Below are positions 12,328-46,370 of a stretch of DNA of 64,000 nt, piece after piece. A program made the position numbers and the translations under genes. The stretch lies in assembly GCA_023247795.1 (NCBI GenBank), contig JAHFFT010000002.1:31760-95759 (forward strand). The letters run 5' to 3'. The number at the start of each line of letters is the position of its first letter. Position 1 is the stretch's first letter. Source of the DNA: Candidatus Omnitrophota bacterium (lineage in GTDB: Bacteria > Omnitrophota > Gorgyraeia > Zapsychrales > JANLHA01). Below the pieces are notes generated by a model that made no database searches, was not told the origin of the DNA, and saw only the letters and a list, made by a program, of their open reading frames with translations.

Positions 12328-12381
12328 CAATGGAATGCCAAGGTTTAGTTGCATGATTTAATCGGGGGAAGGGCAAGAAAG

Positions 12382-16272: not shown

Positions 16273-16812
16273 ATGACGCTTTATGATAGTGTTGTGATTG
16301 TACCGGTCGGCGCTGCCTTTTTTATTTTTCTCGTGATTCATATTGGTTTTTTTCGATTTTTTCCAAGCCAGGACGTCTTACGAAATCTTATTCAGGTTTT
16401 CTTGATCGGTGGTGCGGCTCATATCGCCGCCTTCATTTATTATGGTGGACAGCAAGGGATCATCGGATCAATGGGTCTTTTGAGTCTGCTTTTTTTATTT
16501 GTCGTCTCATTTCTTTTGTATTCTTGCCTGGCGTACATTTATACGATTTGCGTGTTTGGTCCATACGAATCATCGATCCGCATACGCATTGTTCGTGAAT
16601 TGTATCGACAATATCCTAAGCTGATAAGCTGGAAGGAACTTTCGAATCATTACAATATTGACATGATATTGCGGCGACGGCTGGATCGTCTGGTTCGGTC
16701 CCGGGATTTCATTTTCGATGGCAAGTTTTATACAGCAGTTCGAAAAGTGAACATGTTCTCAATTCTTAAGATCGTTGGGAAGAAGTTGAGTGAATTAAGT
16801 AACAATCAATAA
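16273..16812 (+). CDS. small membrane protein with a C-terminal winged-helix-like soluble domain (second copy)
   Basis: ATG at 16273 (MTLYDSVVIV…). 4 TM segments, then IRIVRELYRQYPKLISWKELSNHY…RLDRLVRSRDFIFDGKFYTAV. Stop overlaps the start of the next gene. Confidence 0.4.
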   Translation: MTLYDSVVIVPVGAAFFIFLVIHIGFFRFFPSQDVLRNLIQVFLIGGAAHIAAFIYYGGQQGIIGSMGLLSLLFLFVVSFLLYSCLAYIYTICVFGPYESSIRIRIVRELYRQYPKLISWKELSNHYNIDMILRRRLDRLVRSRDFIFDGKFYTAVRKVNMFSILKIVGKKLSELSNNQ

Positions 16813-29372: not shown

Positions 29373-31610
29373 ATGCGCAAAGAATTCTTAATTTTGGAAT
29401 CCCTTAAATTCAAGGGCGATTGTTTTAAGCTGTTTCGACGCTTGCGGCATCATCCCCACGCTTTTCTTTTAGAAAGCAGTTTGCGCCATAAAGATTACGG
29501 CCGCTATTCTTTCATGGGGTGCGATCCTTTTTTTGTCTTCAAGGGCGATGGCCGTAGTCTCCTTCCCAATCTTCGTAAACATTTTGAACCGTTTCATTTT
29601 CAGAAATTGAAATGCCCAACACCGTTTCCCGCCGGGATCTTGGGATATTTGAGTTATGATTATGGTTTAAGCCTTGAACACGTCGGGTCTGTCCGACGTG
29701 CTAAAGGGATCTTCGACGGATGGTTTGGTTTTTATGATACGGTTATCACGATTGATCATCAGCAGAGCAAGATTTTTATCTGCTCGTCTGGCTGGCCGGA
29801 AAGGAAATTAGCGGCGCGAAAAATAAGGGCGCAGAAACGCCTTCAGGAGATCATATCTTGCTTAGAGAAAGAAGAGTTGCCCGAGATTTCCATTCCTCTT
29901 CGCCCAAGCGTTTTTCGTTTGCAAAGCAATTTCAGTAAGGGGCAGTATGTGCAGGCCGTTCAGAAGGCCAAAGAGTATATCCGTGCCGGTGACATTTATC
30001 AGGTGAACTTGTCACAAAGATTTCATTGCGATCTGCCGTCGTCTCAAGGTAAGGAAGATTCATTAAAACTTTACGAGGTGTTGAAATCCCTTTCCCCGGC
30101 GGCCTTTTCTTCTTATCTTGACGTCGGAGGATTTCAGATCATCAGCAGTTCGCCGGAACGGTTTTTGAGTTTGCGAGAGAACTTGATCCAGACCCGCCCT
30201 ATGAAAGGGACTCGACCCCGAGGAGAAAATCAAAGGGATGATTGGGAGCAAAGAGAGAGTTTGCTGCATAGCAGCAAGGAAAAGGCTGAATTGCTGATGA
30301 TCACCGATCTTGAACGCAACGATTTGGGACGGGTGTGCGATTTTGGATCCGTTCAGGTGGAACGCCTGCGGACTTTGGAGCGATACAAAACTGTTCATCA
30401 GGCCACGTCAACCATTTCCGGCCGGTTAAGAAAAGATAAGGATTGTTTTGATTTGCTGGGTGCGGCTTTTCCCGGTGGATCCATCACCGGCTGTCCTAAA
30501 ATTCGCGCGATGCAGATCATTCAAGAATTGGAAAAGACGCCCCGCGGGATTTACACCGGTTGTTTGGGCTATGTTTCATTTGACCGGAATATGGATTTTA
30601 ATATTTTGATCCGTACTTTGCTCCGTCAGGATTCGCAAGTGGCTTTTCAGGTCGGCAGTGGGATTGTGGCGGATTCAAAGCCCAATGCCGAGTATCAGGA
30701 GACGTTGGATAAAGCCAAGGCCTTGAAAGAGTGCTTGTTAAAAATGACTGACCAAACTTCTGACCTGCGGGGTCAGAATGGTGAAAAGAGGGGAGTGTGG
30801 ATTTATTGGGACGGAGAAATGCGGGAGGTCCCAGAGGCGTTTTGTGATTCTTTAACACCCGGCAGATTTTCGGTCGATGGAGTTTTTGAAACCATGCTGT
30901 TTCATCAGGGGAATGTTGTTTTGTTGGAACGGCATCTCAAACGGTTTGTTAAAGGCGCGGTCACGGTCGGAATTCAGAAAATTCCAACTGTTCAGCGGTT
31001 GAAGTGGATTATCAAAGACGTCATCAGAAAAAATGGTTTTCAGTTGGCGCGCGTACGGTTGATGGCTTGGCAACAGTCGAGTAAAGGTGTTTTCTGCGCG
31101 ATGGTTTTGCCGCATCAGCTTTACCCGAAAGCAAAATACGAAAAGGGGTTCCATGTGCAGATGGCTCATCGGAAGATTTGTTCCGACGCAAAACCAAGTC
31201 ATGTGAAGTCGTTGGATTATGGAAACTTTTATCAGGCGTATGTGAAGACGAAAGCGCTGGGGTATGATGAGGTGGTATTTTTAAATGAGCGCGGGGAAGT
31301 GGCGGAGGCCAGCCGCAGCAACATTTTTTTGGTGAAAGATGGGCAGTTGTTAACTCCGCATTTGAAATCCGGAGCTCTCGATGGAATCACCCGTTGGCAA
31401 GTGATCCAAGTGGCAAGAAAATTCAACCTGCGCGTTCAAGAAACATTTTTAACAAAAGTTGACTTATCAGCCGCTGATGAAATGTTTTTAACCAACTCGC
31501 TGTTGGGCGTCATGCCGGTCACACGGCTGAGCGGACAGTCGGTGGCCGACGGTCGGCCCGGCCCGATCACGGAACAGCTTAAAAAAAAATATGACCGGCG
31601 TTTAAATTAA
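29373..31610 (+). CDS. fused aminodeoxychorismate synthase component I (PabB) / class IV aminotransferase-fold aminodeoxychorismate lyase (PabC)
   Basis: Chorismate-binding motifs SSPERFL, PMKGTRPRG, LMITDLERNDLGRV, GGSITGCPKIRAMQII. C-terminal ~270 aa is a branched-chain/ADC-lyase-type fold. Confidence 0.75.
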   Translation: MRKEFLILESLKFKGDCFKLFRRLRHHPHAFLLESSLRHKDYGRYSFMGCDPFFVFKGDGRSLLPNLRKHFEPFHFQKLKCPTPFPAGILGYLSYDYGLSLEHVGSVRRAKGIFDGWFGFYDTVITIDHQQSKIFICSSGWPERKLAARKIRAQKRLQEIISCLEKEELPEISIPLRPSVFRLQSNFSKGQYVQAVQKAKEYIRAGDIYQVNLSQRFHCDLPSSQGKEDSLKLYEVLKSLSPAAFSSYLDVGGFQIISSSPERFLSLRENLIQTRPMKGTRPRGENQRDDWEQRESLLHSSKEKAELLMITDLERNDLGRVCDFGSVQVERLRTLERYKTVHQATSTISGRLRKDKDCFDLLGAAFPGGSITGCPKIRAMQIIQELEKTPRGIYTGCLGYVSFDRNMDFNILIRTLLRQDSQVAFQVGSGIVADSKPNAEYQETLDKAKALKECLLKMTDQTSDLRGQNGEKRGVWIYWDGEMREVPEAFCDSLTPGRFSVDGVFETMLFHQGNVVLLERHLKRFVKGAVTVGIQKIPTVQRLKWIIKDVIRKNGFQLARVRLMAWQQSSKGVFCAMVLPHQLYPKAKYEKGFHVQMAHRKICSDAKPSHVKSLDYGNFYQAYVKTKALGYDEVVFLNERGEVAEASRSNIFLVKDGQLLTPHLKSGALDGITRWQVIQVARKFNLRVQETFLTKVDLSAADEMFLTNSLLGVMPVTRLSGQSVADGRPGPITEQLKKKYDRRLN

Positions 31611-31655: not shown

Positions 31656-33026
31656 GTGAAGAAAATATTTATTTCAAGTTTGATTGTTTCTTTGCTAACA
31701 CTTGTTTCTGCTGATGTATTTGCCGTTAGCAACATAGGTATTAACCAAGAGAGCGTGTTAACTAACGAAGAAAGAGATCGACTGTTAGCCTCCACCAGTG
31801 GGGCAATAGCTTGTTTGACTGTTCAAGAGCAAGGTAGCGATAAGGAGATATTTGCTGGAACAGGTTTTTTTATCCATGAAGCAGGACTTTTATTAACAAA
31901 TTACCATGTCATTTGTAGGACTGAGAAAGTTTTCGCCCAAGCCGGTGGCAGGCATGCCAAAGCTCAGCTGCTTAAAGTCATATTTTGTGATCAGAAGAGA
32001 GATTATTGTGTGCTTCAATTTCCCGTAGAAGTTGCGCAGCCGTTATCTGTGAGAAGCGACTCATTGCCACAGACCGGAGAAAAAGTATACACTTTAGGTT
32101 TTGTGGGTGGGTGTGATAACCTTTTGATTTCCTCTGGAAATTTTATTGGAAGAGATGAAATATTCAAACAAGATTTTCTCACGGCAACAACAGTTACAGT
32201 TATAGGTAATAGTGGTGGTCCGATTGTGGATCATGACGGCCATGCAATCGGTATTGTTGCTGGCTCCTTACCGGATCGTGATCCCGTAGAAACATACGCG
32301 ATACCGCTCATTGACACGCTAAATGTTGATCTTACCCAAGAAATTCCGTTGAGCGAGTTAACAGAGCGATCTCCCATGCTAAGTTTTTCTTTAGGCCTGC
32401 GGCGCTATGAACAAGGAAAATACATCGAAGCGGTTAATGCTTTAACAGAAGCTTTAGAAGCGGGGCCAGATTCTGATATTTATTTTCAACGAGGTCTGGC
32501 TTTTTACAAGTTAGGTCGTTTAAACGAATCATTGTCTGATATGAATGACGCGATAGATATCGTCGTTAGTGATCGAGACCGTTCTAGGATATTAACGCTC
32601 CGTGGGCTTGTTTATAAAGATAAAAAGGTTTTTACTAAGGCGTTGGAAGATTTTAATCGAGCAATTGAATTGGAACCTCAAAATGCTACGGCATATCATG
32701 ACCGCGGCTTATTGTATGATTTGAAAGGTGATCATATAAAAGCTATTGCTGATTATTCTGAAGCAGTGGTTATTAGTCCCCAATTGGCAAACGCTTATTA
32801 TGACCGCGGGTTGACTTATCAGGTAGAAGAAGGAGATATTGATAAAGCAATTACGGATTATTCCAAGGTGATCGAACTAGACCCGAATCACAAGAGTGCT
32901 TATTGGAATAGGGCCGTCGCGTATTATCAAAAGGGCGATATTTCTAGAAGCCGATCAGATGCAATGAGGGCGAAGGAATTGGGTGCAACAGTTGATGAAG
33001 GGTTAATTGAGAAACTTGGTTTGTAA
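31656..33026 (+). CDS. secreted trypsin-like (S1) serine protease fused to C-terminal TPR repeats
   Basis: Signal peptide. Catalytic His (LTNYHV) and Asp, with Ser in GNSGGPIV. About 6 TPR units (AYHDRGLLYDLKGD…). GTG start. Confidence 0.65.
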   Translation: MKKIFISSLIVSLLTLVSADVFAVSNIGINQESVLTNEERDRLLASTSGAIACLTVQEQGSDKEIFAGTGFFIHEAGLLLTNYHVICRTEKVFAQAGGRHAKAQLLKVIFCDQKRDYCVLQFPVEVAQPLSVRSDSLPQTGEKVYTLGFVGGCDNLLISSGNFIGRDEIFKQDFLTATTVTVIGNSGGPIVDHDGHAIGIVAGSLPDRDPVETYAIPLIDTLNVDLTQEIPLSELTERSPMLSFSLGLRRYEQGKYIEAVNALTEALEAGPDSDIYFQRGLAFYKLGRLNESLSDMNDAIDIVVSDRDRSRILTLRGLVYKDKKVFTKALEDFNRAIELEPQNATAYHDRGLLYDLKGDHIKAIADYSEAVVISPQLANAYYDRGLTYQVEEGDIDKAITDYSKVIELDPNHKSAYWNRAVAYYQKGDISRSRSDAMRAKELGATVDEGLIEKLGL

Positions 33027-34292: not shown

Positions 34293-34778
34293 ATGGACGA
34301 GATCTTAGAAGTCTTGGTGGGTAACGGCCGCGCTACTCCGGAAGAGATCGCCAAATTGACCGGAAAAAATGTGGCGCAAGTTAAAAAGCTGATTAACAAA
34401 TACGAAACCGACGGCACGATCGTCAAATACAAAGCGATCCTGAATACCGAATTGATTCCCGAACGTCGATCCTTGGTCACGGCGTTGATTGAGGTGTGTA
34501 TCGATCCGCAGGAGGATGCCGGGTTTGATCGTGTTGCGGAAAGGATCTACAATTTTCCGGAGGTCACGAGCTGTTATCTGGTTTCCGGGGATCATGATTT
34601 GCTCGTCGTGGTTGAAGGGGACAGCCTGAACACCGTTGCCGATTTTATCGCTTCCAAATTGGCCCCGATGGCCCATGTGCGCAGCACCCGCACGCATTTC
34701 CTTCTGAAGAAGTACAAAGAGGATGGTCAGATCCTCAAGAAGGGTGCTGGGAAAAAACGTCTTAACATTTCTTATTGA
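34293..34778 (+). CDS. Lrp/AsnC family transcriptional regulator
   Basis: N-terminal HTH (MDEILEVLVGNGRATPEEIAKLTG…) plus a C-terminal RAM-like domain. 161 aa. Confidence 0.7.
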   Translation: MDEILEVLVGNGRATPEEIAKLTGKNVAQVKKLINKYETDGTIVKYKAILNTELIPERRSLVTALIEVCIDPQEDAGFDRVAERIYNFPEVTSCYLVSGDHDLLVVVEGDSLNTVADFIASKLAPMAHVRSTRTHFLLKKYKEDGQILKKGAGKKRLNISY

Positions 34779-34786
34779 AAGTTTCT

Positions 34787-35962
34787 ATGACTCCGGTGAC
34801 TCAGGAAAGAATTTCAAAAATAGTAGAAAAATTAGCCCCCTCTGGGATCCGGGCCTTTTTTGATTTGGTCTTGAACATGAAGGACGTCATTTCGCTTGGT
34901 GTCGGTGAACCGGACTTTGTCACTCCCTGGCACATCCGCGAGAAGGCCATCCATTCTTTAGAAAAGGGGTTTACGTCTTACACCTCCAATAAAGGGATGC
35001 CGGAACTTCGCAAAGAAATCGCGCAATTCCTTCAGAAGCGTTATGGATTGAGTTATGATTTCTCGGAAGAGATCTTGATCACCGTCGGGGTCAGTGAAGG
35101 GTTGGATTTAGCGATGCGGGCCCTTCTTAATCCCGGAGATAAAGTTTTGGTTCCGGAGCCAGCGTATGTTTCTTACGGGCCGGTCGTTGAATTGGCCGGC
35201 GGTGAGCCGATTTATTTACAGACCAACATCAAAAATGAGTTCAAATTGACGGCACAGCAGATCGATCAAGCCGCGGTCAAAGGGACCAAGGCCTTGATGA
35301 TCAATTATCCGTCCAATCCAACAGGCACGTCTTATACCAAAGCGGAACTGCTCGCGATCGCCCAGGTGGTGAAAAAGCATGATCTTTTGATCGTCAGCGA
35401 CGAGGTTTATGATGAACTGACTTACGACTTTGATCATACGCCGCTTTCATCCCTCCCGGGGATGAAAGACCGGGTGATTTATCTCAACGGTTTTTCAAAG
35501 GCCTATGCCATGACCGGATTTCGCATTGGTTATGCCTGCGGCCCGCGTGAGATCGTCGCGGCCATGACCAAGATCCATCAATATACGATGTTATGCGCGT
35601 CCATTACCGGGCAGATTGCCGCTCAAGACGCGTTGAAATACGGCCAGCGGGATGTGGCGGAAATGCGTAAAGAATACAATCGTCGTCGTCGATATATGGT
35701 CAGCAGCCTCAATGAATTGGGCCTGGATTGCCATACCCCGCAAGGAGCATTTTATGTCTTCCCATCAATCCAAAAGACTGGAATGAAGTCATTGGATTTC
35801 GCTAAAGATCTTTTAGAGAAAGAAAAAGTCGCCTTGGTTCCGGGGGTGGCCTTTGGCCCGTCGTGTGAAGGGTATATCCGAATTTCCTACGCTTCCAGTT
35901 ACGAGAACTTGCAGGAAGCTGTCAAACGGATAAAAAGATATCTTCAAAAAAGTAAAGAGTGA
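34787..35962 (+). CDS. class I/II PLP-dependent aminotransferase (aspartate/aromatic aminotransferase-like)
   Basis: PLP lysine motif NGFSKAYAMTGFRIGY and NPTG. ATG 34787 (the track TTG at 34775 overlaps the asnC-like stop). Confidence 0.75.
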   Translation: MTPVTQERISKIVEKLAPSGIRAFFDLVLNMKDVISLGVGEPDFVTPWHIREKAIHSLEKGFTSYTSNKGMPELRKEIAQFLQKRYGLSYDFSEEILITVGVSEGLDLAMRALLNPGDKVLVPEPAYVSYGPVVELAGGEPIYLQTNIKNEFKLTAQQIDQAAVKGTKALMINYPSNPTGTSYTKAELLAIAQVVKKHDLLIVSDEVYDELTYDFDHTPLSSLPGMKDRVIYLNGFSKAYAMTGFRIGYACGPREIVAAMTKIHQYTMLCASITGQIAAQDALKYGQRDVAEMRKEYNRRRRYMVSSLNELGLDCHTPQGAFYVFPSIQKTGMKSLDFAKDLLEKEKVALVPGVAFGPSCEGYIRISYASSYENLQEAVKRIKRYLQKSKE

Positions 35963-35973
35963 AAAGTGAAGAG

Positions 35974-36375
35974 ATGAAAGAAACCAACCTCAAATTCGAA
36001 ATTCGTTTTTATGAAGGGATTTTAGAACACAAGCCGGATTTCATCCAGGCCTTGATGGCCTTGGCGGATTGTTACACCAGGGACGGTCAACATGAAAAAG
36101 GTCTGGTCCTTGATAAGCAACTCTCCCAATTACGGCCGGAAGATCCTTACATCCTTTACAATTTGTCGTGCAGTTATTCTTTACTCAACCAGGTCGATAA
36201 GGCCTTTGAGACAATGAAATTGGCGATCGATGGCGGCTATGATGATTTCCGTTTTTTAGCCAAGGACCAGGACTTGGAAAATCTTCGCAACGACCAACGG
36301 TTCCAGGAATATTTGCTGCAGTTCAAAAACAAGCGCGTTTTTGATCAAAACCCTGATTTAAAAACACATCCTTGA
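35974..36375 (+). CDS. small TPR-like protein
   Basis: ALMALADCYTRDGQHEKG…YNLSCSYSLLNQVDKAFETMKLAIDGGY are helical-repeat hallmarks. Confidence 0.4.
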   Translation: MKETNLKFEIRFYEGILEHKPDFIQALMALADCYTRDGQHEKGLVLDKQLSQLRPEDPYILYNLSCSYSLLNQVDKAFETMKLAIDGGYDDFRFLAKDQDLENLRNDQRFQEYLLQFKNKRVFDQNPDLKTHP

Positions 36376-39203
36376 TTGTGAATAAAACTTGGCCGCTCAT
36401 CCTTGTCGCGTGTCTGCTCGGGGGGGTGGCCCCGTCTTTTGTCTTTGCCGCTCAGCCGCCGAGATATGAAATGCAAGTCCGTGTTGACACGGATAAGAAA
36501 TTTTTGACCGCCAACCAAACAACCATGTTCACCAATCCTACCGCGCAGCCGTTGAAAGAAATTTATTTCCATATCTATCCTAACCGTCGATATACCGCGA
36601 AAGAAATTGGTTTTCTATGTCGTTTTGGTGGCTATTTCAAGGTCAATTTTTTTCCGGAAGGGTATCAGCGGACCCGTATGCAGATTGGATCAGTGAGAAC
36701 GGGAGAGCAAAATTTGTCCTATCAAATCGAAGGCGACGACGAGACCCTTTTAAAGATCGCGTTGCCACAACCTTTAGCGCCAGGAGAGACGGTTGCGCTG
36801 ACCATCGATTTCAAGATCGGATTGCCGCATCAGTATGGACGATTTGGCTGGCATAAAAACATCATCCAGCTTTCCCGTTGGTATCCGATCCTAGCGGTGG
36901 TCGATGAGAAGGGATGGAACAAGGCGCCATTCTATCCTTACCAGCGCCCGTTTTACAGCGAGGCCTCCTTTTATGATGTGTCCTTAACGGTCCCAGAGAA
37001 TCAAATTGTCATTCATTCCGGAATCGAAGACGCGAGCAAGCCCATCGCTGAAGGACAGAAGACCGTGCATATCAAAACCGAAAATCCAATAAGGGATTTC
37101 AGCATGGCGATGAGCAAAGACTATTTGCTGTTGAGCCAAAAAGCGCAGGACATCACGTTCAAGGCCTTTTACTTTCCTGGTAACGAACAGCATGCCCGGC
37201 AGGCGCTTGATAGCGCCCAGCAAATGATGGCCGCGTATTCACAGAAGTTTGGGCCGTATCCGTATTCGGAATTCAGCATTGCCCCGGTTTATTTGGGGTA
37301 CGGCGGGGAGCAGATGGCGAACATGATTTTTGTAGATACCCGAGTTTTTGAGATGCCGCAAGTTTTGAATCGGCATTTTGATTTTTTAATTTCGCATGAA
37401 ACCGGGCACCAGTGGTTTTACAATCTGGTCGGTGTTGATGAATACTGCCAGATGTGGCTGGAGGAAGGGGTCCATTCTTTTTTTCTTTCGGAATATTTCC
37501 GGCAAAAATACGGCGCGGACGCGTCCATTTTGGATTTTCCGAAATGGTGCAAGAGTTGGAACTGGGTCTTACCGAAGTTGACTTTTGAGCGGGCGAGTAC
37601 GGTCCGATATCAGATGATGGTTCGCATGGGATATGACCGGCCGATCGTCGATGATCTATCTAGTTTCGCGGAACCGAGCAGCATTTTCGCGTTGACCTAC
37701 GGCAAGGGAGCACAGATTGTAAAGATGTTGCAAACCTTGTTGGGTCGAGAACGGATGGATAAGATTTTTCAAAGGATCTTTCGAGAATACCAATTTAAAA
37801 ATTGGTCGATCGTGGACTTTAAAAAAATTTGTGAACAGGAAAGCGGTTTGTCTTTGGATTGGTTTTTCCAAGAGTGGCTGCATTCGGTAAAAAAGCTCGA
37901 TGTTACCGTTCGCAAGGTACAAGGGAATCGGTTAGTCTTACAAAATCGCGGCAACGCCGTGATGCCGGTCAAGGTGCGGATACGGTTTCGGGATGGGGGA
38001 GAGGAAACTTTTGATTGGCAGCCACGGGGTGCCGGCGAGATCGCGACTTTTGAAAAGAGTCGCAGGATCAAATCGGTGCAAGTTGATCCGGAAAGAACTT
38101 TGCTCGATGTTGATCGCACCAATAATCTCTGGCCACGGGTCGTTGAAATCCATCCGGTGCCAATTTATCTGGGGCTTTACGATCTGCCGGTCCTTTTGCC
38201 AGACGACCGCGTCAATGTCGTGATTGGTCCGGAGACCGCCAATTCCGGTTTAGGCCTCAAGGTTTCGGTCCAAAAGCCGTATGATCAGATTTTTTATGCC
38301 GGTACTGATTATGAATTTCATGAAAGACATCACCATGCTCGTCTGGGCTATCAGTTAAAAAATGTTTTGCAATCACAAACAACGTTAGGGGTGGAGATTG
38401 CCAATCGCAATGATACCAAAGGGGACGAGGAGGATTTGGCCAGCGGGAAAGTGTATCTGCGCAAAGAATTGTCACCGAGCCAATATGGATTGGCTGAGAT
38501 CAATGATCACGCCACGTTGTATGTGATGCGTAACCAGAGTTTGAATGACACGGTTGATTTTATCTCTGGACGGGAAGATGTTCGGAACTTGAATTATTCC
38601 CGGATCGACGAAGCGATTGTGGGGACAACAATGCATCTGGACCGTTCTGGTCCTTATCCGGATCCGGTCAAAGGATACCGTTTGGATACGAGTCTGGAAA
38701 GCGCCGGACATTTTCTGGACGCGACCCAGTTCTTTTACCGTTCGCAGATCGATTTGAGCCTGTATCATCCCGTGACGCCAAAATCGACCTTGGCCTTGCG
38801 CAACAAGTACGATTGGGGATATCCAGATGACAAGGATTTGTTTCATATCGGCGGGATGGACGGCCTGCGGGGTTTTGAACGCAAAACGATCCGCGGGGCC
38901 AACGCTTTTTTAAGCAGTGTGGAGTATCGTTTTCCCATCAAAGAAGACTTGAAAATCCATGCCTTGGATAACATCTTTGGTTTGGAAAAGGTGAGTGGAG
39001 TGATTTTTTTTGATGCTGGCCAGGCCTGGTTTTCTGATTTTTCTGAATCGCGTTTGCGCAAAGACGCGGGATTGGGCCTGCGTTTTCACGTCGATGTTGG
39101 TTCGTTTTTAGAAAAGGTTGTTGTCCGTATGGATGTGGCCAAGGCCATCAACGAACCCGACGATGATGTCGAGTTTTGGTTTGGGGTCAATCATGCTTTT
39201 TAA
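36372..39203 (+). CDS. M1-family zinc metallopeptidase fused to a C-terminal Omp85/bacterial-surface-antigen beta-barrel
   Basis: Signal peptide. Gluzincin HETGHQWFYNLVGVDEY…WLEEG (HExxH-x18-E). C-terminal GGMDGLRGFERKTIRGANAFLSSVEYRFPI and terminal …FWFGVNHAF (a beta-barrel signature with terminal Phe). Confidence 0.6.
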   Translation: MIVNKTWPLILVACLLGGVAPSFVFAAQPPRYEMQVRVDTDKKFLTANQTTMFTNPTAQPLKEIYFHIYPNRRYTAKEIGFLCRFGGYFKVNFFPEGYQRTRMQIGSVRTGEQNLSYQIEGDDETLLKIALPQPLAPGETVALTIDFKIGLPHQYGRFGWHKNIIQLSRWYPILAVVDEKGWNKAPFYPYQRPFYSEASFYDVSLTVPENQIVIHSGIEDASKPIAEGQKTVHIKTENPIRDFSMAMSKDYLLLSQKAQDITFKAFYFPGNEQHARQALDSAQQMMAAYSQKFGPYPYSEFSIAPVYLGYGGEQMANMIFVDTRVFEMPQVLNRHFDFLISHETGHQWFYNLVGVDEYCQMWLEEGVHSFFLSEYFRQKYGADASILDFPKWCKSWNWVLPKLTFERASTVRYQMMVRMGYDRPIVDDLSSFAEPSSIFALTYGKGAQIVKMLQTLLGRERMDKIFQRIFREYQFKNWSIVDFKKICEQESGLSLDWFFQEWLHSVKKLDVTVRKVQGNRLVLQNRGNAVMPVKVRIRFRDGGEETFDWQPRGAGEIATFEKSRRIKSVQVDPERTLLDVDRTNNLWPRVVEIHPVPIYLGLYDLPVLLPDDRVNVVIGPETANSGLGLKVSVQKPYDQIFYAGTDYEFHERHHHARLGYQLKNVLQSQTTLGVEIANRNDTKGDEEDLASGKVYLRKELSPSQYGLAEINDHATLYVMRNQSLNDTVDFISGREDVRNLNYSRIDEAIVGTTMHLDRSGPYPDPVKGYRLDTSLESAGHFLDATQFFYRSQIDLSLYHPVTPKSTLALRNKYDWGYPDDKDLFHIGGMDGLRGFERKTIRGANAFLSSVEYRFPIKEDLKIHALDNIFGLEKVSGVIFFDAGQAWFSDFSESRLRKDAGLGLRFHVDVGSFLEKVVVRMDVAKAINEPDDDVEFWFGVNHAF

Positions 39204-40701
39204 ACATTCTAAACATTCTGCGGAAGTCAAAGCGAGCGGGAAGACGGGGATCCATATCCTGATCCTCATTGTTCTTGGGTTCGCGGTTTATTCAAACGTT
39301 CTCAGCAATGGGTTCATTGGGGATGATCATGTTAAGGTTGAAAAAAATTTGTTTTATCGGAGTTTGGTAAATCTTCCGCACTTGTTTGATAGCTCGTATC
39401 TTGCTTATCAAAATGACTATTTTTATAAGGACCCACCGTATTTTTCTTCGGGAGAGGTTTCTTACCGACCGATGATTTCATTGTTTTACTTCATGGATTA
39501 CCAAATTTGGCATGAGAATCCGTTTGGCTGGCACCTGGACAGTATTTTGCTTCATATCCTCAACGTGGTTTTGGTCTATATCTTTGTCTCGATGATTTTG
39601 CGCAGTGAAAAAATTGGCCTTTTATCGGCGGTGTTGTTTTGCGTTCACCCGATCCAAGCCGAGGTGGTGAACGCGATCAGTTATCGCCACGCTATGTTAG
39701 ACGCCTTTTTTGTCTTATGGGCCTTCATTTTTTATATCAAGGGAAAAGAGGTGTCCCCAAAATGGGGTCGTGCTTTGTATGTGCTGTCAGTCGTTTGCTA
39801 TTTTTTGGGGGTGTTCTCTAGAGAATCTGCGGTTGTTTTTCCCGTCATGCTTTTTTTATACGACTATTTTATCCTGGGGAAAAAAGATGTTTTGCTGCCA
39901 AGGGAATTCTTTCGACGCTACATTTGGTTTTACGTTGTCACGGTATTTTTTTTATTCATTTATTTTTTTGTGTTCCCGAACACGGCCTTGCCGGACAATC
40001 AGCTGTTGGGGGGATCGCTTGGATGGCATGTGTTGTCGATCGCGTTGAATTTTTTTCGTTATCTCTTTTGGCTGATCTTTCCGATGTTTGTCAACGTGAT
40101 CCCGCCTTTGTATGCTCCTGACATCAGTCATACGCCTTTTAAAGAAACCATCATTTGTTGTTTGTCCTTTTTAGCGTTTGTCGTGTTAGCCGTTCAATGT
40201 TTCAGAATCGAGAAGAAAGTACTCCTTTTTTTGTTGTGGTTTATTGTGTTTTTTATTCCGGTATCAAACGTGATCCCCTTAGCTAATCCTGTGGCCCATC
40301 GCTTTATGTATTTGCCATCCATTGGGGTCTGTGTTCTCGGCGGTATTTTTTTTGAAAAAATCCTTTGTGAGTTTAGGAGGTTGGGTTATGTTCTGATCGT
40401 CGCGATGGTCTTAATGAGCTGCAGCATGACGTTCTCGATCAATATGCTGTGGAAGAACGAGTTGAGACTGTTCTTAGCATTGGTCAGGTTGTATCCCGAA
40501 AATAAAAAATCGCACGAGGTTTTGGGCATGGCCTATTTCAATTTGGGTTTGTATCAAGAGGCCAAGACGTATCTGCGTAAGGCCTTGGAAATGGGGTCGA
40601 CTGACCCTCGGATGCAAAAGGAATTGAAGATGATTGCTGATAAGGAAACGGAATCGAAAAATCCCAGTGGTTCTTTGGAACAAGGAGGAGTGGGGCAATG
40701 A
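39193..40701 (+). CDS. TMTC/PMT-like GT-C membrane glycosyltransferase (DUF1736-type) with a short C-terminal TPR
   Basis: [15 protein letters not shown] loop-1 acidic motif. ~11 TM segments. C-terminal [37 protein letters not shown] 39193 overlaps the upstream stop by 11 nt. Confidence 0.6.
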
Positions 40702-41117
40702 AACATCATCGAGAAGAACTTTGGTTCAATACTCAGACCCGCCGGGCTTATATCAATATCAGCGAACAAGTCCAGGACATCGTCGAAAAAAGCGGAATCA
40801 AAGAGGGGTTATGTTTGGTGAATGCCATGCACATCAGCGCCAGTGTTTATATCAACGATGATGAAAGTGGGCTTCTCAAGGACTATGATGTCTGGTTGGA
40901 AAAGTTGGCCCCGCACGATCCGGTCGCCCAGTACCGACATAATGATACCGGTGAGGACAACGCCGATGCTCATTTGAAACGCCAAGTGATGGGGCGGGAG
41001 GTTGTTGTCGCGGTCACAAGGGGGAAGTTGGATTTCGGTCCGTGGGAGCAGATTTTTTACGGTGAGTTCGACGGCCGACGCAAGAAGCGGGTGTTGGTAA
41101 AGATCATTGGGGAATAG
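40698..41117 (+). CDS. yjbQ: YjbQ/UPF0047 family protein (secondary thiamine-phosphate synthase-like)
   Basis: …[26 protein letters not shown]…[16 protein letters not shown] is the family signature. ATGA overlap with the upstream gene. Confidence 0.6.
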
Positions 41118-41205
41118 TTTTCAAGTTTCAGGTCGCAGGTCTCAAGTCACAAGAAAAAAACACTTGGCAACTTGAGACGTGCGATTTACCAATAACCTGC
41201 GAGGT
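41118..41205. repeat. CAAGTCTCAAG-family palindromic intergenic repeat (imperfect long hairpin)
   Basis: caggtctcaagtcacaag-A7-cacttggcaacttgagac, with an outer tcgcaggt / acctgcga pairing. Confidence 0.5.
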
Positions 41206-41238
41206 CAGAACATCAGAAAGGCCTGTTTTTTGTTTATG

Positions 41239-42654
41239 AAGAAATGGGGTCAGATTGTCTTGCTGATTTTGATGGGAGGGGCGGTCTATTATAATTCGCT
41301 CTTTAATGGTTTTGTATCGGATGATCATATCGTCATCGAGAAGAACCTGTTTTATAAAAGCTGGAATAATCTGCCGCGCTTGTTTGATAATTCTTATCTC
41401 GCTCATCAGAACGATTATTTTATTAAAGAGCCGCCTTATGATTCTTCCGGTGCGGTTTCTTATCGTCCGATGATTTCATTATTCTATTTTTTGGATTACC
41501 ATTTTTGGCAAGAAAATCCTTTCGGCTGGCACTTAGACAGCGTTGTCCTTCATCTGATCAACACGCTTTTACTTTATTACCTCGTTTTACTGATGTTAAA
41601 GAATGAGACGACGGCATTTTTGACCGCGGTCTTCTTTTGTGTGCATCCTGTCCAGTCTGAGGCTGTGAACGTGATTAGCTACCGTCACGCTATGTTAGAC
41701 ACCTTTTTTGTTTTGTTGGGTCTCATTTTTTATGTCAAGGCCTCAGCGGCAGCGCAAAAGCGGAATATGGGATGCTATGTGCTTTCGCTCCTTTGCTATT
41801 TTTTTGCTGTATTTTCTCGAGAATCTGCGGTTGTTTTTCCGTTCATCGTGTTTTTATATGATTTTTTTGTTTTGCAGCAAAAGGAGGCGATAAACCCGCG
41901 GCAATTCATACGACGCTATACTCTTTTTTACGTGGTTACATTATTTTTCTTATACATCTACTTCTTCGTTTTTCCTAACACGGCTTTGCCGGAGAATCAT
42001 TTGTTAGGCGGGGCTCTGGGCGTACATGCATTATCGATCGTGATGAATTTCTTTCGTTATCTTTTCTGGTTGCTTTTCCCGATGTTCGTCAACGTGGTCG
42101 CTCCTATGTACGCGCCCGTCGTCAATCAGGAAACGTTGGGGCAAGTCATTGTCAACTGTTTGGCGTTTTTGACATTCATCATGTTGTCGATCAAGTGTGT
42201 GCGAGGAGAAAAGAAGGCATTGTTCTTTTCACTATGGTTTGTCGTGTTTTTTCTTCCGATCTCGAATGTGATTCCTTTGGCCAATCCGGTGGCGCAACGT
42301 TTTATGTATTTGCCTTCCATTGGAATCTGTGCCCTGGCGGCCATTTTTTCCCAACAGTTGCTTTCTGAATTTAAAAGACTGGGGACGGGACTGATCTCCT
42401 TTTTGATTTTGTTGTTGTGCGGGATGACCATCTCGCTCAATATGTTGTGGGCAAATGATCTGAGATTATTCCTGACTTTGACCCGACTATACCCGGAGAA
42501 TCTCAGGTCTCAGGAGTTTTTGGGGATGGTTTATTTTAACATGGGATTGGATAAGGAAGCCGAAGAGCATTTGCAGAAGGCCTTGGAATTGGGATCGCAG
42601 GACCCAAGAATGGAAACAATTTTTAAAATTATGAAGGAAAGGAAAGGGCTGTAA
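41239..42654 (+). CDS. TMTC/PMT-like GT-C membrane glycosyltransferase, second paralog
   Basis: YYNSLFNGFVSDDHI, collinear with 39193..40701. C-terminal QEFLGMVYFNMGLDKEAEEHLQKALELGSQDP TPR. The track's GTG at 41179 lies inside the repeat hairpin and is unlikely. Confidence 0.6.
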   Translation, partial: KKWGQIVLLILMGGAVYYNSLFNGFVSDDHIVIEKNLFYKSWNNLPRLFDNSYLAHQNDYFIKEPPYDSSGAVSYRPMISLFYFLDYHFWQENPFGWHLDSVVLHLINTLLLYYLVLLMLKNETTAFLTAVFFCVHPVQSEAVNVISYRHAMLDTFFVLLGLIFYVKASAAAQKRNMGCYVLSLLCYFFAVFSRESAVVFPFIVFLYDFFVLQQKEAINPRQFIRRYTLFYVVTLFFLYIYFFVFPNTALPENHLLGGALGVHALSIVMNFFRYLFWLLFPMFVNVVAPMYAPVVNQETLGQVIVNCLAFLTFIMLSIKCVRGEKKALFFSLWFVVFFLPISNVIPLANPVAQRFMYLPSIGICALAAIFSQQLLSEFKRLGTGLISFLILLLCGMTISLNMLWANDLRLFLTLTRLYPENLRSQEFLGMVYFNMGLDKEAEEHLQKALELGSQDPRMETIFKIMKERKGL

Positions 42655-44997: not shown

Positions 44998-45230
44998 GAT
45001 GAAAACCGCTAGGAAAAAACTGCATTTTTCGCGTACCTTCTTTCAAACCACATCGCTCCTACCTTAAATAATACAAGTTTTTTTTTGGTTAAAAGATATC
45101 AAGTTTCCTAGAAAGCGCTTTCTTTTGCGAAGCTGAAAGCCTTTTTTCTTAGCGGGCCAGGTGTTACAGTTGATTGGGAGCTAAGATTTTTCCGGTTGCT
45201 GTTAAAAATGAACAGGAAAGGAGTTTTACC

Positions 45231-46370
45231 ATGAAAGCCGAACAAAAAATTTGGTCTTTAGCCGCGGGTTGGCAAACAGAATCTGATCATCAATTGGGAG
45301 AAAAGGCGCAGCTGGTTCTGATATTTGGGGGAGCCGATTACCTCAAAGACCGCAAACGTATTGAAGAAATCAAACATTTTTATCCAAAAGCCCATTTGGT
45401 TGGATGTTCCACCGCTGGAGAAATCTGCGGGACCCATGTCGCCGATGATACGATTGTTTTGACCGCTGTTCAGTTCGAGCACACCACGATCAAGGTGACT
45501 AATATTAAGCTTAAAAGTATTGAAAACAGTTTCATGGCCGGTGAACGATTGATTGCGGCCATGGGTAAGCAGGGGTTGGCGCATGTCATTGTCCTTTCGG
45601 AAGGGATCCACGTCAACGGCAGTGAACTTGTCAAAGGGATGGCAAGCCAGCTTTCGCAAAAGGTGTCTGTCACCGGCGGTCTTTCCGCGGACGGAGATCG
45701 TTTCAAAAAGACTTTTGTTATTTGTGATCAAGAAGCCGAAGAAGACACGATCGCGGCGATTGGTCTTTATGGCGACCACATCAAAGTTAATTTCAGCGCC
45801 ATGGGAGGGTGGGAACCGTTTGGTCCGGAAAGGATGGTCACTCGCTCCGAGAGCAATGTTCTCTATGAACTGGATGGTCAATCGGCGCTTGCTTTGTATA
45901 AAGAATATTTAGGCGAACATGCCCAAAAGCTGCCGTCGGCGGCCTTGTTATTTCCTTTGAGCTTGCAGACTGCTGACCGCAAAGGTTGGGTGGTGCGCAC
46001 GATTTTAGGAATCAATGAAGAGGATCAAAGTATGACCTTTGCCGGGGACATTGCGGAAGGGTCTTTTGTCCGTTTGATGAGCGCGAATTATGACAATTTG
46101 ATCGACGGGGCCATTGGTGCCGCAAAGGCAAGTTATAAAAGCAATGGAAAGCCTGGTCCGGATTTGGCCATCTTGATGAGTTGTGTTGGCCGCAAATTAT
46201 TATTGAAGCAAAGGGTTGAGGAAGAAATCGAAGGCGTTCGTGATGTTTTTGGCGATCAAACGGTTCTAACTGGTTTTTACACCTACGGAGAGATCGCGCC
46301 ATTTCGAGCGAATACCCCTTGTGTCTTGCACAATCAAACAATGACGATCACGACTTTAAGTGAATATTGA
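45231..46370 (+). CDS. FIST domain sensor protein
   Basis: FIST_N-like LVLIFGGADYL…HLVGCSTAGEI and a FIST_C-like second half. AAAGGAG Shine-Dalgarno sequence before ATG 45231. Confidence 0.55.
   Translation: MKAEQKIWSLAAGWQTESDHQLGEKAQLVLIFGGADYLKDRKRIEEIKHFYPKAHLVGCSTAGEICGTHVADDTIVLTAVQFEHTTIKVTNIKLKSIENSFMAGERLIAAMGKQGLAHVIVLSEGIHVNGSELVKGMASQLSQKVSVTGGLSADGDRFKKTFVICDQEAEEDTIAAIGLYGDHIKVNFSAMGGWEPFGPERMVTRSESNVLYELDGQSALALYKEYLGEHAQKLPSAALLFPLSLQTADRKGWVVRTILGINEEDQSMTFAGDIAEGSFVRLMSANYDNLIDGAIGAAKASYKSNGKPGPDLAILMSCVGRKLLLKQRVEEEIEGVRDVFGDQTVLTGFYTYGEIAPFRANTPCVLHNQTMTITTLSEY

What the first reader, a model, noticed from the sequence alone, without database searches (positions are those of the whole stretch)
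36372..39203. M1 aminopeptidase domain fused to an Omp85-type outer-membrane beta-barrel
A 943-aa protein with a signal peptide combines an M1 gluzincin catalytic module (HETGH…WLEEG) with a C-terminal bacterial-surface-antigen/Omp85-like barrel. The barrel segment reads GGMDGLRGFERKTIRGANAFLSSVEYRFPI and ends in a terminal aromatic …VNHAF. This would present a metallopeptidase on the cell surface via a BamA/TamA-like anchor. It is an unusual domain combination. It is possibly linked to the downstream TMTC-like gene, which overlaps it by 11 nt.
Basis: partly seen in the sequence, partly recalled or inferred. Interest (0 to 1): 0.55.

Follow-up and report, generated by a model that had tools for sequence, protein, structure and literature searches.

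The report
Zinc aminopeptidase fused to Omp85 barrel
This gene really does encode a zinc aminopeptidase fused to a BamA-like outer-membrane barrel, but the fusion is a conserved, uncharacterised protein family of Omnitrophota and some Planctomycetota, and the enzyme most likely sits under the outer membrane in the periplasm, not on the cell surface.

Summary
One uninterrupted ORF (36372/36378-39203, +) encodes a signal peptide, a three-domain M1 zinc aminopeptidase module (aa 28-593) and a 16-stranded Omp85-type barrel (aa 612-941). It is not a merged gene call.

- Catalytic residues are invariant in 36 aligned homologues: H340, E341, H344, E363, E311, Y441.
- The Omp85 signature residues and the terminal Phe are also invariant in that alignment. 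These lie in the L6 loop motif (LRGF in the window) and the beta13 motif (FFDAG in the window).
- AlphaFold2 gives a confident single model (pLDDT 84, pTM 0.87). The barrel alone matches only BamA/TamA barrels.
- There is no POTRA domain and no helical M1 domain IV.

The architecture is not rare. At least 276 species-representative genomes encode it, essentially all Omnitrophota among those listed. A collinear 28%-identical homologue exists in cultured Isosphaeraceae such as Singulisphaera. I found no paper describing it.

Canonical Omp85 loop parity puts the N-terminus of strand 1, and so the peptidase, in the periplasm. The linker and periplasmic turns are more conserved than most surface loops. 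Surface display is therefore not supported. The TMTC-like neighbour is not a conserved partner (12 of 72 loci).

Best reading: a periplasm-facing, outer-membrane-anchored aminopeptidase, a POTRA-less Omp85 variant analogous to PlpD. Its physiological substrate is unknown.

The parts
36372..39203 (+). M1-Omp85 fusion gene. Start is TTG 36372 or, 2 codons later, GTG 36378. Stop is at 39201-39203. Residue numbers in this report count from GTG 36378 (941 aa).
   Evidence: Pfam; homologues
36378..36452 (+). Sec signal peptide, aa 1-25 (MNKTWPLILVACLLGGVAPSFVFA|AQ). Signal peptidase I type, not a conserved lipobox.
   Evidence: comparable leaders in most homologues; Cys not conserved; low conservation
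36459..37181 (+). M1 domain I (N-terminal beta domain), aa 28-268.
   Evidence: AlphaFold2 secondary structure; Foldseek alignment to IRAP/ERAP domains I-III
37182..37883 (+). M1 thermolysin-like catalytic domain, aa 269-502. It carries GGEQ (310-313, in place of GAMEN), HETGH (340-344), zinc-ligand E363 in WLEEG, and the catalytic Tyr441 in TYGKG.
   Evidence: Pfam PF01433; invariant residues; motif alignment to glutamyl aminopeptidase; block alignment
37884..38156 (+). Beta-sandwich, aa 503-593, equivalent to M1 domain III. It is the least conserved folded part (38% identity).
38157..38210 (+). Conserved 18-residue linker, aa 594-611, between the peptidase module and barrel strand 1. There is no POTRA domain here.
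   Evidence: no POTRA hit, no beta-alpha-alpha-beta-beta unit; conservation 0.78
38211..39200 (+). 16-stranded Omp85-type beta-barrel, aa 612-941, ending in the beta-signal-like FWFGVNHAF.
   Evidence: Pfam PF01103; 16 strands; Foldseek to BamA/TamA barrels
38865..38876 (+). L6 loop tip motif LRGF (aa 830-833), the Omp85 (V/I)RG(Y/F) signature. R831 and G832 are invariant.
   Evidence: motif definition from the abstract of PMC4490367
39006..39020 (+). Strand 13 inner-wall motif FFDAG (aa 877-881), the Omp85 (F/G)xDxG signature. F877 and G881 are invariant and D879 is at least 90% conserved.
35959..36375 (+). Small cytoplasmic TPR protein (138 aa, no signal peptide). Its stop overlaps the M1-Omp85 start. 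It is the most frequently retained upstream neighbour.
   Evidence: Pfam; NCBIfam TPR_END_plus; synteny
39193..40701 (+). It overlaps the fusion gene by 11 nt. It is a lineage-specific insertion, not a conserved partner.

Best explanation
The gene encodes an outer-membrane-anchored, periplasm-facing M1 zinc aminopeptidase.

Proposed sequence of events:
1. The precursor is exported by Sec and its signal peptide is removed.
2. [quoted passage not shown] This step is inferred.
3. The N-terminal 570-residue peptidase module stays in the periplasm. It comprises M1 domains I-III. The usual helical domain IV is missing, and the barrel follows in its place in the chain.
4. The module is held rigidly under the barrel by a short conserved linker and conserved periplasmic turns.
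5. The module is catalytically competent. It has the zinc ligands H340, H344 and E363, the general base E341, the N-terminus-anchoring E311 and the transition-state Tyr441. It therefore removes N-terminal residues from peptides or unfolded polypeptides at the inner face of the outer membrane.

Shown here: the architecture, the motif invariance, the barrel fold, the absence of POTRA, the phyletic spread and the conserved synteny.

Inferred: the periplasmic orientation, the rigid docking and the enzyme activity.

The physiological role is not established. My preferred guess is trimming of peptides for amino-acid supply. The gene sits in an overlapping, co-directional string behind an Lrp/AsnC-type regulator and a class I aminotransferase.
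For: - Architecture and significance.
- Catalytic residues invariant in the 36 aligned sequences. E311 aligns with the Glu of GAMEN, and Y441 with the Tyr of the YxKG motif, in human glutamyl aminopeptidase 4kx7.
- M1 domains I-III match IRAP/ERAP over about 590 columns, with nothing matching domain IV.
- Full-length AlphaFold2 pTM is 0.87, against 0.75 for the barrel alone. This indicates a confidently fixed inter-domain arrangement.
- The barrel matches only BamA/TamA barrels.
- Loop parity (long L4 and L6 after strands 7 and 11, FxDxG on strand 13) is the canonical Omp85 topology, so strand 1 starts in the periplasm.
- The linker (0.78) and periplasmic turns T1 (0.94), T3 (0.78), T4 (0.77) and T7 (0.88) are more conserved than surface loops L1, L4, L7 and L8 (0.46-0.55).
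- Precedent: the enzyme domain of PlpD, another Omp85 fusion, is periplasmic: PMC11116518.
- Operon-like 4-nt overlaps run AsnC - aminotransferase - TPR - M1-Omp85. AsnC and the aminotransferase are retained upstream in 44-45 of 83 loci.
Against: - No coordinates or PAE of the models were available, so I could not see which face of the barrel the peptidase occupies or where its active site points.
- Orientation rests on homology to solved Omp85 barrels. No topology experiment exists for this family.
- A soluble periplasmic enzyme would suffice for nutrition. The barrel is as conserved as the catalytic domain (58% against 56% identity), and the lid-lock motifs are retained. Both suggest the barrel does more than anchor.
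- The GAMEN motif is a variant (GGEQ), so strict aminopeptidase specificity is not proven.
- The Lrp/aminotransferase neighbourhood is part of a larger housekeeping syntenic block (PabB, YjbQ, PfkB, Era). It is lost in the more divergent Omnitrophota lineages, so it is weak functional evidence.
Confidence: 0.6

Rival explanations
1. Envelope-protein processing or quality control. The barrel keeps an Omp85-type interaction with unfolded polypeptides, by beta-signal or strand pairing at the seam. The attached peptidase trims or degrades outer-membrane or secreted proteins as they arrive at the membrane. This would resemble the M48 protease BepA working at BAM.
For: - The barrel is as conserved as the catalytic domain, and both Omp85 lid-lock residue sets are invariant in the alignment.
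- The nearest relatives of the barrel are almost all fused to MA-clan zinc peptidases. These are M1 fusions in Omnitrophota and Planctomycetota, then Peptidase_MA_2 + PD40 + Omp85 proteins. This points to an old functional coupling of peptidase and barrel.
- The gene is conserved in a housekeeping syntenic block across the sampled Omnitrophota.
- An inner-membrane M48 peptidase is an upstream neighbour in 23 of 83 loci.
- Heinz and Lithgow proposed periplasmic quality control for another enzyme-Omp85 subfamily (PMC4104836).
Against: - There are no POTRA domains, which bind substrates in BamA, TamA and TpsB.
- An exopeptidase with an N-terminus anchor (E311) is an odd tool for degrading folded or aggregated proteins.
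- No chaperone, BAM lipoprotein or TamB gene is in the conserved neighbourhood.
- M48 is absent from this window.
Confidence: 0.2
2. One reading: surface display. The Omp85 barrel acts as a type Vd-like autotransporter and exports the M1 module, which then works as a cell-surface peptidase on external proteins.
For: - The layout of N-terminal enzyme and C-terminal 16-stranded Omp85 barrel formally resembles the original type Vd model for PlpD (PMC4104836).
- Omnitrophota are thought to be host-dependent or predatory (my own background knowledge, not checked here). A surface peptidase would make biological sense for such a lifestyle.
Against: - Canonical loop parity puts the N-terminus of strand 1 in the periplasm.
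- There is no POTRA and no long or helical pore-spanning linker. The linker is only 18 residues and is predicted with high confidence.
- The L6 lid-lock that plugs Omp85 barrels is intact.
- The passenger would be a 570-residue, multi-domain zinc enzyme, unlike the beta-helical passengers that fold outside the cell.
- The type Vd model itself has been overturned for PlpD, whose enzyme domain is periplasmic (PMC11116518).
- Periplasmic turns are more conserved than surface loops.
Confidence: 0.08
3. Coupled import and trimming. The barrel is a peptide-conducting channel whose periplasmic mouth is capped by the M1 active site. The barrel takes the structural place of M1 domain IV. Incoming peptides are captured by their N-terminus and trimmed, which makes uptake irreversible.
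For: - In chain order the barrel replaces domain IV, which in IRAP, ERAP and APN closes over the active-site cavity.
- The predicted inter-domain geometry is rigid (pTM 0.87).
- The linker and periplasmic turns are conserved.
- The gene neighbourhood is amino-acid related.
Against: - Solved BamA and TamA barrels are closed to the outside by L4, L6 and L7. The corresponding L6 lock is conserved here.
- No coordinates were available to test whether the active site faces the lumen.
- No Omp85 protein is known to import peptides.
Confidence: 0.1
4. Annotation artefact: two separate genes, a peptidase and an outer-membrane protein, merged by a sequencing or ORF-calling error.
Against: - There is a single frame without a stop.
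- The same full-length architecture occurs in all 120 listed homologue clusters and in the best 80 genomic loci from independent assemblies.
- The window protein aligns collinearly over aa 28-941 with a protein of the finished Singulisphaera acidiphila genome.
- The single-chain model is confident.
Confidence: 0.01

Closest known systems
PlpD / FplA, the patatin-like Omp85 proteins originally called 'type Vd autotransporters'
   Same: - An N-terminal hydrolytic enzyme domain is fused to a C-terminal 16-stranded Omp85-type barrel.
- The enzyme domain of PlpD is periplasmic and packs under the barrel (PMC11116518).
- Both show the Omp85 scaffold reused for a non-insertase function.
   Different: - The enzyme is a 570-residue M1 zinc aminopeptidase, not a patatin-like phospholipase.
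- There is no POTRA domain between enzyme and barrel.
- Dimerisation and a lid-swapping segment were not examined here.
- The substrate is presumably peptide, not lipid.
WD40-Omp85, 'Metallo'-Omp85 and noNterm subfamilies of Heinz and Lithgow 2014 (PMC4104836)
   Same: - All are POTRA-less Omp85 barrels with alternative N-terminal domains or none.
- After the M1 fusions, the nearest barrel relatives found here are Peptidase_MA_2 + PD40 propeller + Omp85 proteins. By their PD40/WD40-like propeller these look like the published WD40-Omp85 class (my inference).
- That class therefore also carries an HExxH-type peptidase domain.
   Different: - The N-terminal module here is a complete M1 aminopeptidase (domains I-III) without a propeller.
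- The M1 combination is not among the ten published architectures.
- The published 'Metallo' class carries PF00149 (a metallophosphoesterase), not a peptidase.
BamA / TamA
   Same: - The barrel fold is the same: Foldseek E down to 4.6e-10, and TamA barrel TMt 0.65.
- The L6 (V/I)RG(Y/F) and strand 13 FxDxG motifs and the C-terminal aromatic are shared.
   Different: - There are no POTRA domains.
- NCBIfam BamA scores 43.6 bits against a cutoff of 297.
- The barrel has no significant sequence match to any solved structure by phmmer.
- It is not shown to assemble other proteins.
M1 aminopeptidases: PepN/APN, ERAP1/2, IRAP, glutamyl aminopeptidase, tricorn factor F3
   Same: - The domain I-II-III fold is shared.
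- HExxH-x18-E, the catalytic Tyr and the N-terminus-binding Glu are all conserved.
   Different: - The helical domain IV that caps the active site is absent, and a membrane barrel follows in its place.
- GAMEN is replaced by GGEQ.
- The protein is anchored in a bacterial outer membrane.
BepA, the M48 metalloprotease with TPR that acts at the BAM complex
   Same: It is a zinc metalloprotease operating at the periplasmic face of an Omp85 barrel. This is the functional analogue for the quality-control rival.
   Different: - BepA is a separate soluble protein of clan MA family M48 and is an endoprotease/chaperone.
- It is not covalently fused to the barrel.
- No homology to it was tested here beyond the presence of an M48 gene as a neighbour in 23 of 83 loci.

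Membership tests
Peptidase family M1 (MEROPS clan MA, gluzincins) | Pfam PF01433 match above the gathering score | tested here: met
   77.5 bits against a cutoff of 27.7, aa 276-500
Peptidase family M1 (MEROPS clan MA, gluzincins) | HExxH-x18-E zinc-binding and catalytic motif | tested here: met
   H340 E341 T G H344 ... E363 in WLEEG. H340, E341, H344 and E363 are invariant in the 36 aligned sequences.
Peptidase family M1 (MEROPS clan MA, gluzincins) | GxMEN exopeptidase motif (its Glu binds the substrate N-terminus) | tested here: inconclusive
   The motif reads GGEQ(M). E311 is invariant and aligns with the Glu of GAMEN in 4kx7, but Met and Asn are not in register.
Peptidase family M1 (MEROPS clan MA, gluzincins) | Catalytic Tyr stabilising the transition state (YxKG region) | tested here: met
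   Y441 in TYGKG is invariant and aligns with the Tyr of 'iSYSKGs' in 4kx7.
Peptidase family M1 (MEROPS clan MA, gluzincins) | Four-domain fold including the C-terminal helical domain IV (the long M1 enzymes) | tested here: not met
   Domains I-III match IRAP/ERAP over about 590 columns. After aa 593 only beta strands are predicted. Domain IV is replaced by the barrel.
Omp85 superfamily | Pfam PF01103 match above the gathering score | tested here: met
   67 bits against a cutoff of 24, covering profile positions 15-325 of 325
Omp85 superfamily | C-terminal 16-stranded transmembrane beta-barrel | tested here: met
   16 strands in two AlphaFold2 models. The top 50 Foldseek PDB hits are all BamA/TamA. 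This is a prediction, not an experiment.
Omp85 superfamily | (V/I)RG(Y/F) motif at the tip of loop L6 | tested here: met
   LRGF at 830-833, between strands 11 and 12. R831 and G832 are invariant and L6 conservation is 0.81.
Omp85 superfamily | (F/G)xDxG motif on the inner wall of strand 13 | tested here: met
   F877-F-D879-A-G881 on predicted strand 13 (867-884). F877 and G881 are invariant.
Omp85 superfamily | [quoted passage not shown] | tested here: not met
   No PF07244 hit even at E<=1. No beta-alpha-alpha-beta-beta unit is predicted; aa 503-593 is an all-beta sandwich and the linker is 18 residues. POTRA-less Omp85 subfamilies are already recognised (PMC4104836).
BamA / TamA (insertase equivalogs) | Equivalog-level sequence score plus 5 (BamA) or 3 (TamA) POTRA domains | tested here: not met
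   TIGR03303 scores 43.6 bits against a cutoff of 297. NF047779 Omp85_fam scores 45.3 against 200. There is no POTRA.
Type Vd / patatin-like Omp85 (PlpD, FplA) | N-terminal patatin-like domain and a single POTRA before a 16-stranded barrel | tested here: not met
   The N-terminal module is M1, not patatin, and there is no POTRA. Only the barrel feature is shared.
Type Vd / patatin-like Omp85 (PlpD, FplA) | Location of the enzyme domain (secreted or periplasmic) | not testable with these tools
   This needs protease-accessibility or labelling experiments. For PlpD itself the domain is periplasmic (PMC11116518).
Classical (type Va) autotransporter | 12-stranded barrel with an alpha-helical linker in the pore | tested here: not met
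   The barrel has 16 strands. Only a 4-residue helix (599-602) precedes strand 1.
TpsB (FhaC/ShlB) transporters | PF03865 match and two POTRA domains | tested here: not met
   ShlB E 0.13, 12.1 bits against a cutoff of 22.7
TMTC-type O-mannosyltransferase (the neighbouring gene 39193-40701) | DUF1736 / PMT-type GT-C domain plus TPR repeats | tested here: not met
   Only single TPR hits even at E<=1, and no NCBIfam hit. About 10 hydrophobic segments are present. The resemblance is architectural only.

The most novel reading that the evidence does not exclude
The Omp85 barrel has taken the structural place of M1 domain IV. The aminopeptidase active site would then sit directly under the periplasmic mouth of the barrel. 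The protein would be a one-polypeptide 'import-and-trim' (or 'thread-and-trim') machine. A peptide or unfolded polypeptide passing the outer membrane through, or along the seam of, an Omp85 barrel would be captured by its N-terminus and shortened processively. This would be the first Omp85 protein coupled to proteolysis. Together with the Peptidase_MA_2-PD40-Omp85 proteins, it would define a clade of peptidase-coupled Omp85 barrels.
Probability: 0.12. Interest if true: 0.8.

Novelty: new variant of a known kind. Interest (0 to 1): 0.5.

Why it matters
Omp85 proteins were long thought to do only two things: insert barrel proteins or translocate polypeptides, always with POTRA domains. PlpD showed in 2024 that the scaffold can instead hold a periplasmic enzyme. 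The family described here extends that idea.

- It is POTRA-less, and the fused enzyme is a complete, apparently active M1 aminopeptidase.
- It is conserved across the sampled Omnitrophota, a phylum without pure cultures, and is also present in cultured Isosphaeraceae such as Singulisphaera acidiphila. It can therefore be tested experimentally.
- Its barrel is as conserved as its catalytic domain.
- Its closest barrel relatives are also fused to zinc peptidases, which hints at a recurrent peptidase-barrel partnership that has not been studied.
- Databases name these proteins either 'M1 family aminopeptidase' or 'BamA/TamA family outer membrane protein'. Either name alone is misleading.

Tried and rejected
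- Model coordinates are not exposed. The position of the active site relative to the barrel could not be measured.
- An exact look-up of P0001, the 100%-identical database protein, found no contig.
- phmmer of the barrel against PDB sequences found nothing significant. Only profile and fold methods detect the Omp85 relationship.
- I considered a Rosetta-stone link between the upstream TPR gene and the fusion, because P0020 (1088 aa) joins them. I rejected it. The TPR protein has no signal peptide, and P0020 contains an internal Met plus signal peptide at the junction, so the join is a read-through or gene-call artefact.
- I looked for a second Omp85 or M1 paralogue in the window with family HMMs. 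There is none.
- I looked for M48 and the PilZ-coiled-coil-glycosidase-like gene, which lie upstream in many relatives. Both are absent from this window.
- Cross-phylum synteny is not convincing. Isosphaeraceae also have a class I aminotransferase two genes away, but on the other strand and only 37% identical.
- The promoter/terminator scan of 33.9-43.7 kb gave no more sites than shuffles.
- Six literature searches looked for this fusion or for Omp85, BamA or aminopeptidases in Omnitrophota and Planctomycetes. None found a description of an M1-Omp85 protein.
- I could not test whether Omnitrophota also encode a canonical BamA.

Full report

Yes. The ORF listing and translation show one open frame on the + strand. 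It runs from TTG 36372 (or GTG 36378, two codons later) to the stop at 39201-39203.

Pfam gives two strong, non-overlapping matches:
- Peptidase_M1, aa 276-500, E 1.4e-21.
- Omp85 PF01103, aa 647-941, nearly the whole profile, E 2.8e-18.

NCBIfam agrees at superfamily level only. Aminopeptidase N and BamA/Omp85_fam hits all fall far below their equivalog cutoffs.

The N-terminus is a signal-peptidase-I-type leader. Most full-length homologues have a comparable leader and its Cys is not conserved, so the protein is not a lipoprotein. The identical database entry P0001 (910 aa) starts at Met32 and probably has a miscalled start.

The downstream gene starts at ATG 39193 and does overlap by 11 nt.

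**2. Is it one protein, and is the C-terminus a barrel?**

A search of 5.8 billion protein clusters found 421 relatives. The best 120 are all 910-1088 aa and carry the same PF01433 + PF01103 pair at 49-57% identity.

A scan of one genome per GTDB species found 276 genomes encoding a relative. Most of the best 80 loci cover nearly the full length of the protein (38-95% identity); a few are cut by contig ends. Nearly all are labelled Candidatus Omnitrophota. Generic ENA labels such as 'uncultured Planctomycetales' belong to the same family.

AlphaFold2 with a 36-sequence alignment gave pLDDT 84.3 and pTM 0.87. The model contains:
- an M1 N-terminal beta domain (29-265);
- a helical catalytic domain (270-501);
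- a beta-sandwich (509-593);
- an 18-residue linker;
- 16 long beta strands (612-939).

Foldseek places the first ~590 residues on IRAP/ERAP/APN domains I-III. A separate model of aa 575-941 (pLDDT 80, pTM 0.75) hits only BamA and TamA in its top 50 PDB matches. E ranges from 4.6e-10 to 5e-8, and the isolated TamA barrel 4n74 gives TMt 0.65 and rmsd 5.1 A.

**3. Anatomy and conservation**

In the 36-sequence alignment the following are invariant:
- the M1 catalytic set: H340, E341, H344, E363 (HExxH-x18-E) and Y441 (TYGKG);
- E311 and Q312 of a GGEQ motif.

A profile alignment to human glutamyl aminopeptidase puts E311 on the Glu of GAMEN. The N-terminus-anchoring residue of exopeptidases is therefore retained, although the motif is a variant.

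On the barrel side the two Omp85 signature motifs are present. One is the L6 tip LRGF (830-833; R831 and G832 invariant). The other is FFDAG on strand 13 (F877 and G881 invariant, D879 at least 90% conserved). Their role as Omp85 signatures is stated in PMC4490367 (abstract seen). The terminal F941 is also invariant.

Two expected parts are missing:
- No POTRA domain. There is no Pfam hit at E<=1 and no beta-alpha-alpha-beta-beta element.
- No helical M1 domain IV. The barrel follows domain III where domain IV would be.

Segment-wise conservation:

| Segment | Value |
|---|---|
| Barrel, identity to the window | 58% |
| Catalytic domain, identity | 56% |
| Beta-sandwich, identity | 38% |
| Linker, identity | 65% |
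| Periplasmic turns T1 / T3 / T4 / T7, majority frequency | 0.94 / 0.78 / 0.77 / 0.88 |
| Surface loops L1, L4, L7, L8, majority frequency | 0.46-0.55 |
| L5 and the lumen-inserted L6, majority frequency | 0.84 and 0.81 |

L5 and L6 are the exceptions among the surface loops.

**4. Which side of the membrane?**

The long loops follow odd-numbered strands. L4 (719-745) has a short helix, and L6 (816-841) carries the RGF motif. Strand 13 carries FxDxG. This is the register of solved Omp85 barrels, in which those loops are extracellular and strand 1 begins in the periplasm.

By that homology the M1 module is periplasmic. Supporting points:
- The linker is short, conserved and confidently modelled.
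- pTM is higher for the whole chain (0.87) than for the barrel alone (0.75), which argues for a fixed docking.
- The conserved, unusually long periplasmic turns T3 and T4 are the natural docking surface.

These steps are inferences. I had no access to the coordinates.

The best experimental precedent points the same way. PlpD was long called a type Vd autotransporter. It keeps its patatin domain in the periplasm, packed under the barrel (PMC11116518).

**5. Context**

In the window the gene is part of a co-directional string with 4-nt or 11-nt overlaps:

| Coordinates | Gene |
|---|---|
| 34293-34778 | Lrp/AsnC regulator |
| 34775-35962 | class I aminotransferase |
| 35959-36375 | small TPR protein |
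| 36372-39203 | M1-Omp85 |
| 39193-40701 | multi-pass TPR membrane protein |
| 40698-41117 | YjbQ |

Across 83 loci the gene lies in a conserved block: PabB/ADCL, a coiled-coil protein, AsnC, aminotransferase, small TPR, an optional Ste24-like M48 peptidase, an optional PilZ-TM-coiled-coil-glycosidase-like protein, M1-Omp85, YjbQ, PfkB and Era.

Immediate neighbours:
- Upstream: small TPR in 25 of 70 evaluable loci, the PilZ protein in 12 of 70, M48 in 10 of 70.
- Downstream: YjbQ in 24 of 72, the 'TMTC-like' protein in 12 of 72.

The TMTC-like gene is thus a lineage-specific insertion. Here it is duplicated, with a second copy at 41179-42654 that is 62% identical. It shows only TPR hits in Pfam. 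The proposed functional link is not supported.

The TPR-M1-Omp85 'fusion' P0020 contains an internal Met and signal peptide, so it is a read-through artefact.

The regulator and aminotransferase neighbours are a weak hint towards amino-acid supply.

**6. Wider family**

A sensitive search with the barrel alone against 1.84 billion representatives gave 549 hits.

I ran Pfam on 28 of the more distant hits.
- Of the first 18, 16 carry Peptidase_M1. This includes 980-1060-aa proteins in which Pfam no longer detects the barrel.
- That longer group is from Planctomycetota, family Isosphaeraceae: Singulisphaera acidiphila, Paludisphaera borealis and Tundrisphaera.
- The Singulisphaera protein aligns collinearly with the window protein over aa 28-941 (28% identity, E 1e-120). 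It keeps HExxH, the zinc Glu, FxDxG and a C-terminal Phe, but has LRAL instead of LRGF in L6.
- The next tier of barrel relatives are Peptidase_MA_2 + PD40 propeller + Omp85 proteins. By their propeller these look like the 'WD40-Omp85' class of Heinz and Lithgow.

The barrel's nearest relatives are therefore almost all fused to HExxH zinc peptidases.

A deep-branching 914-aa member (P0142) still groups with Omnitrophota.

**7. Comparison with what is known, and novelty**

The published Omp85 classification has ten architectures: BamA, TamA, BamA-like, patatin, WD40, Metallo (PF00149), Lipo, noNterm, FhaC and Hmw1B. None contains M1 (PMC4104836).

Six literature searches found no paper describing an M1-Omp85 protein. 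Databases annotate members as either 'M1 family aminopeptidase' or 'BamA/TamA family outer membrane protein'.

By the membership tests, the protein belongs to the M1 family in a three-domain form with a variant GAMEN motif. It also belongs to the Omp85 superfamily as a POTRA-less form. It is not a BamA, TamA, TpsB, PlpD-type or classical autotransporter protein.

I rate it a new variant of a known kind: an enzyme-Omp85 fusion. It is widespread in two PVC-related phyla but uncharacterised.

**8. Mechanism and verdict**

Best-supported reading (confidence about 0.6): a Sec-exported, BAM-inserted, periplasm-facing outer-membrane-anchored aminopeptidase that acts on free N-termini at the inner face of the outer membrane.

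What it is for remains open. Rival readings and my estimates:
- Peptide trimming for nutrition. This is my preferred role within the best reading; it is hinted at by the Lrp/aminotransferase context and was not scored separately.
- Envelope-protein processing or quality control (about 0.2). This is supported by the strong barrel conservation and the recurrent peptidase-barrel coupling.
- A coupled import-and-trim channel in which the barrel replaces domain IV (about 0.1).
- Surface display (about 0.08).
- A gene-merging artefact, which is excluded.

Interest is moderate (0.5). The finding is solid and undescribed, and it is experimentally tractable through the cultured Isosphaeraceae homologues. 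It extends an already recognised theme rather than opening a new one.

Noticed in passing
window 16812-19913, 20068-23181, 23333-26485: Three tandem paralogues of about 1035 aa, 72-80% identical to each other. Each has about 10 hydrophobic segments and a weak C-terminal TPR, with no other Pfam family. They may be GT-C-like membrane glycosyltransferases. The local AT skew is strongly negative.
   Followed up: partly
window 12349-14016 and 14024-15718; also 6296-8449: Two adjacent multi-pass membrane proteins of about 560 aa, 65% identical, with no Pfam hit at all. Another multi-pass protein of 717 aa also has no Pfam hit.
   Followed up: partly
window 39193-40701 and 41179-42654: The 'TMTC-like' gene is duplicated around yjbQ, and the copies are 62% identical. 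In the 95%-identical relative L004, hits to both copies fall in one place between the M1-Omp85 gene and yjbQ, which suggests a single copy there and a recent second copy here.
   Followed up: partly
L001:5996-7996 and homologues in 34 of 83 loci: A 666-870-aa protein lies directly upstream of M1-Omp85 in the more divergent Omnitrophota lineages. It has a weak N-terminal PilZ match, a TM segment, a coiled coil and a weakly GH76-like domain. It is often preceded by a Ste24-like M48 peptidase. Both genes are absent from this window. A functional link to the fusion protein is possible but untested.
   Followed up: partly
window 36372-36474 (database protein P0001): The identical database protein is annotated from Met32 (910 aa), which removes the signal peptide. 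The homologues support the upstream GTG/TTG start.
   Followed up: yes
L003:8001-11267 (P0020): A 1088-aa gene call joins the small TPR protein to M1-Omp85. An internal Met and signal peptide at the junction indicate a read-through or assembly artefact, not a real fusion.
   Followed up: yes
proteins P0187, P0194-P0258 (not in the window): A large group of 900-1030-aa proteins combines Peptidase_MA_2, PD40 propeller repeats and an Omp85 barrel. The published 'WD40-Omp85' class therefore seems also to carry an HExxH peptidase domain, which the 2014 paper does not mention in the passages I read.
   Followed up: partly
window 29373-31610 and 31656-33026: A fused aminodeoxychorismate synthase / class IV aminotransferase (PabB-PabC-like, 745 aa). 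It is split into two genes in relatives L002 and L003. It is followed by a trypsin-like serine protease with a long TPR tail.
   Followed up: no
window, whole: All but two ORFs of at least 200 aa are on the + strand. Of those two, 45258-45881 lies inside the + strand ORF 45174-46370. GC skew is positive throughout, consistent with a single replichore leading strand.
   Followed up: no
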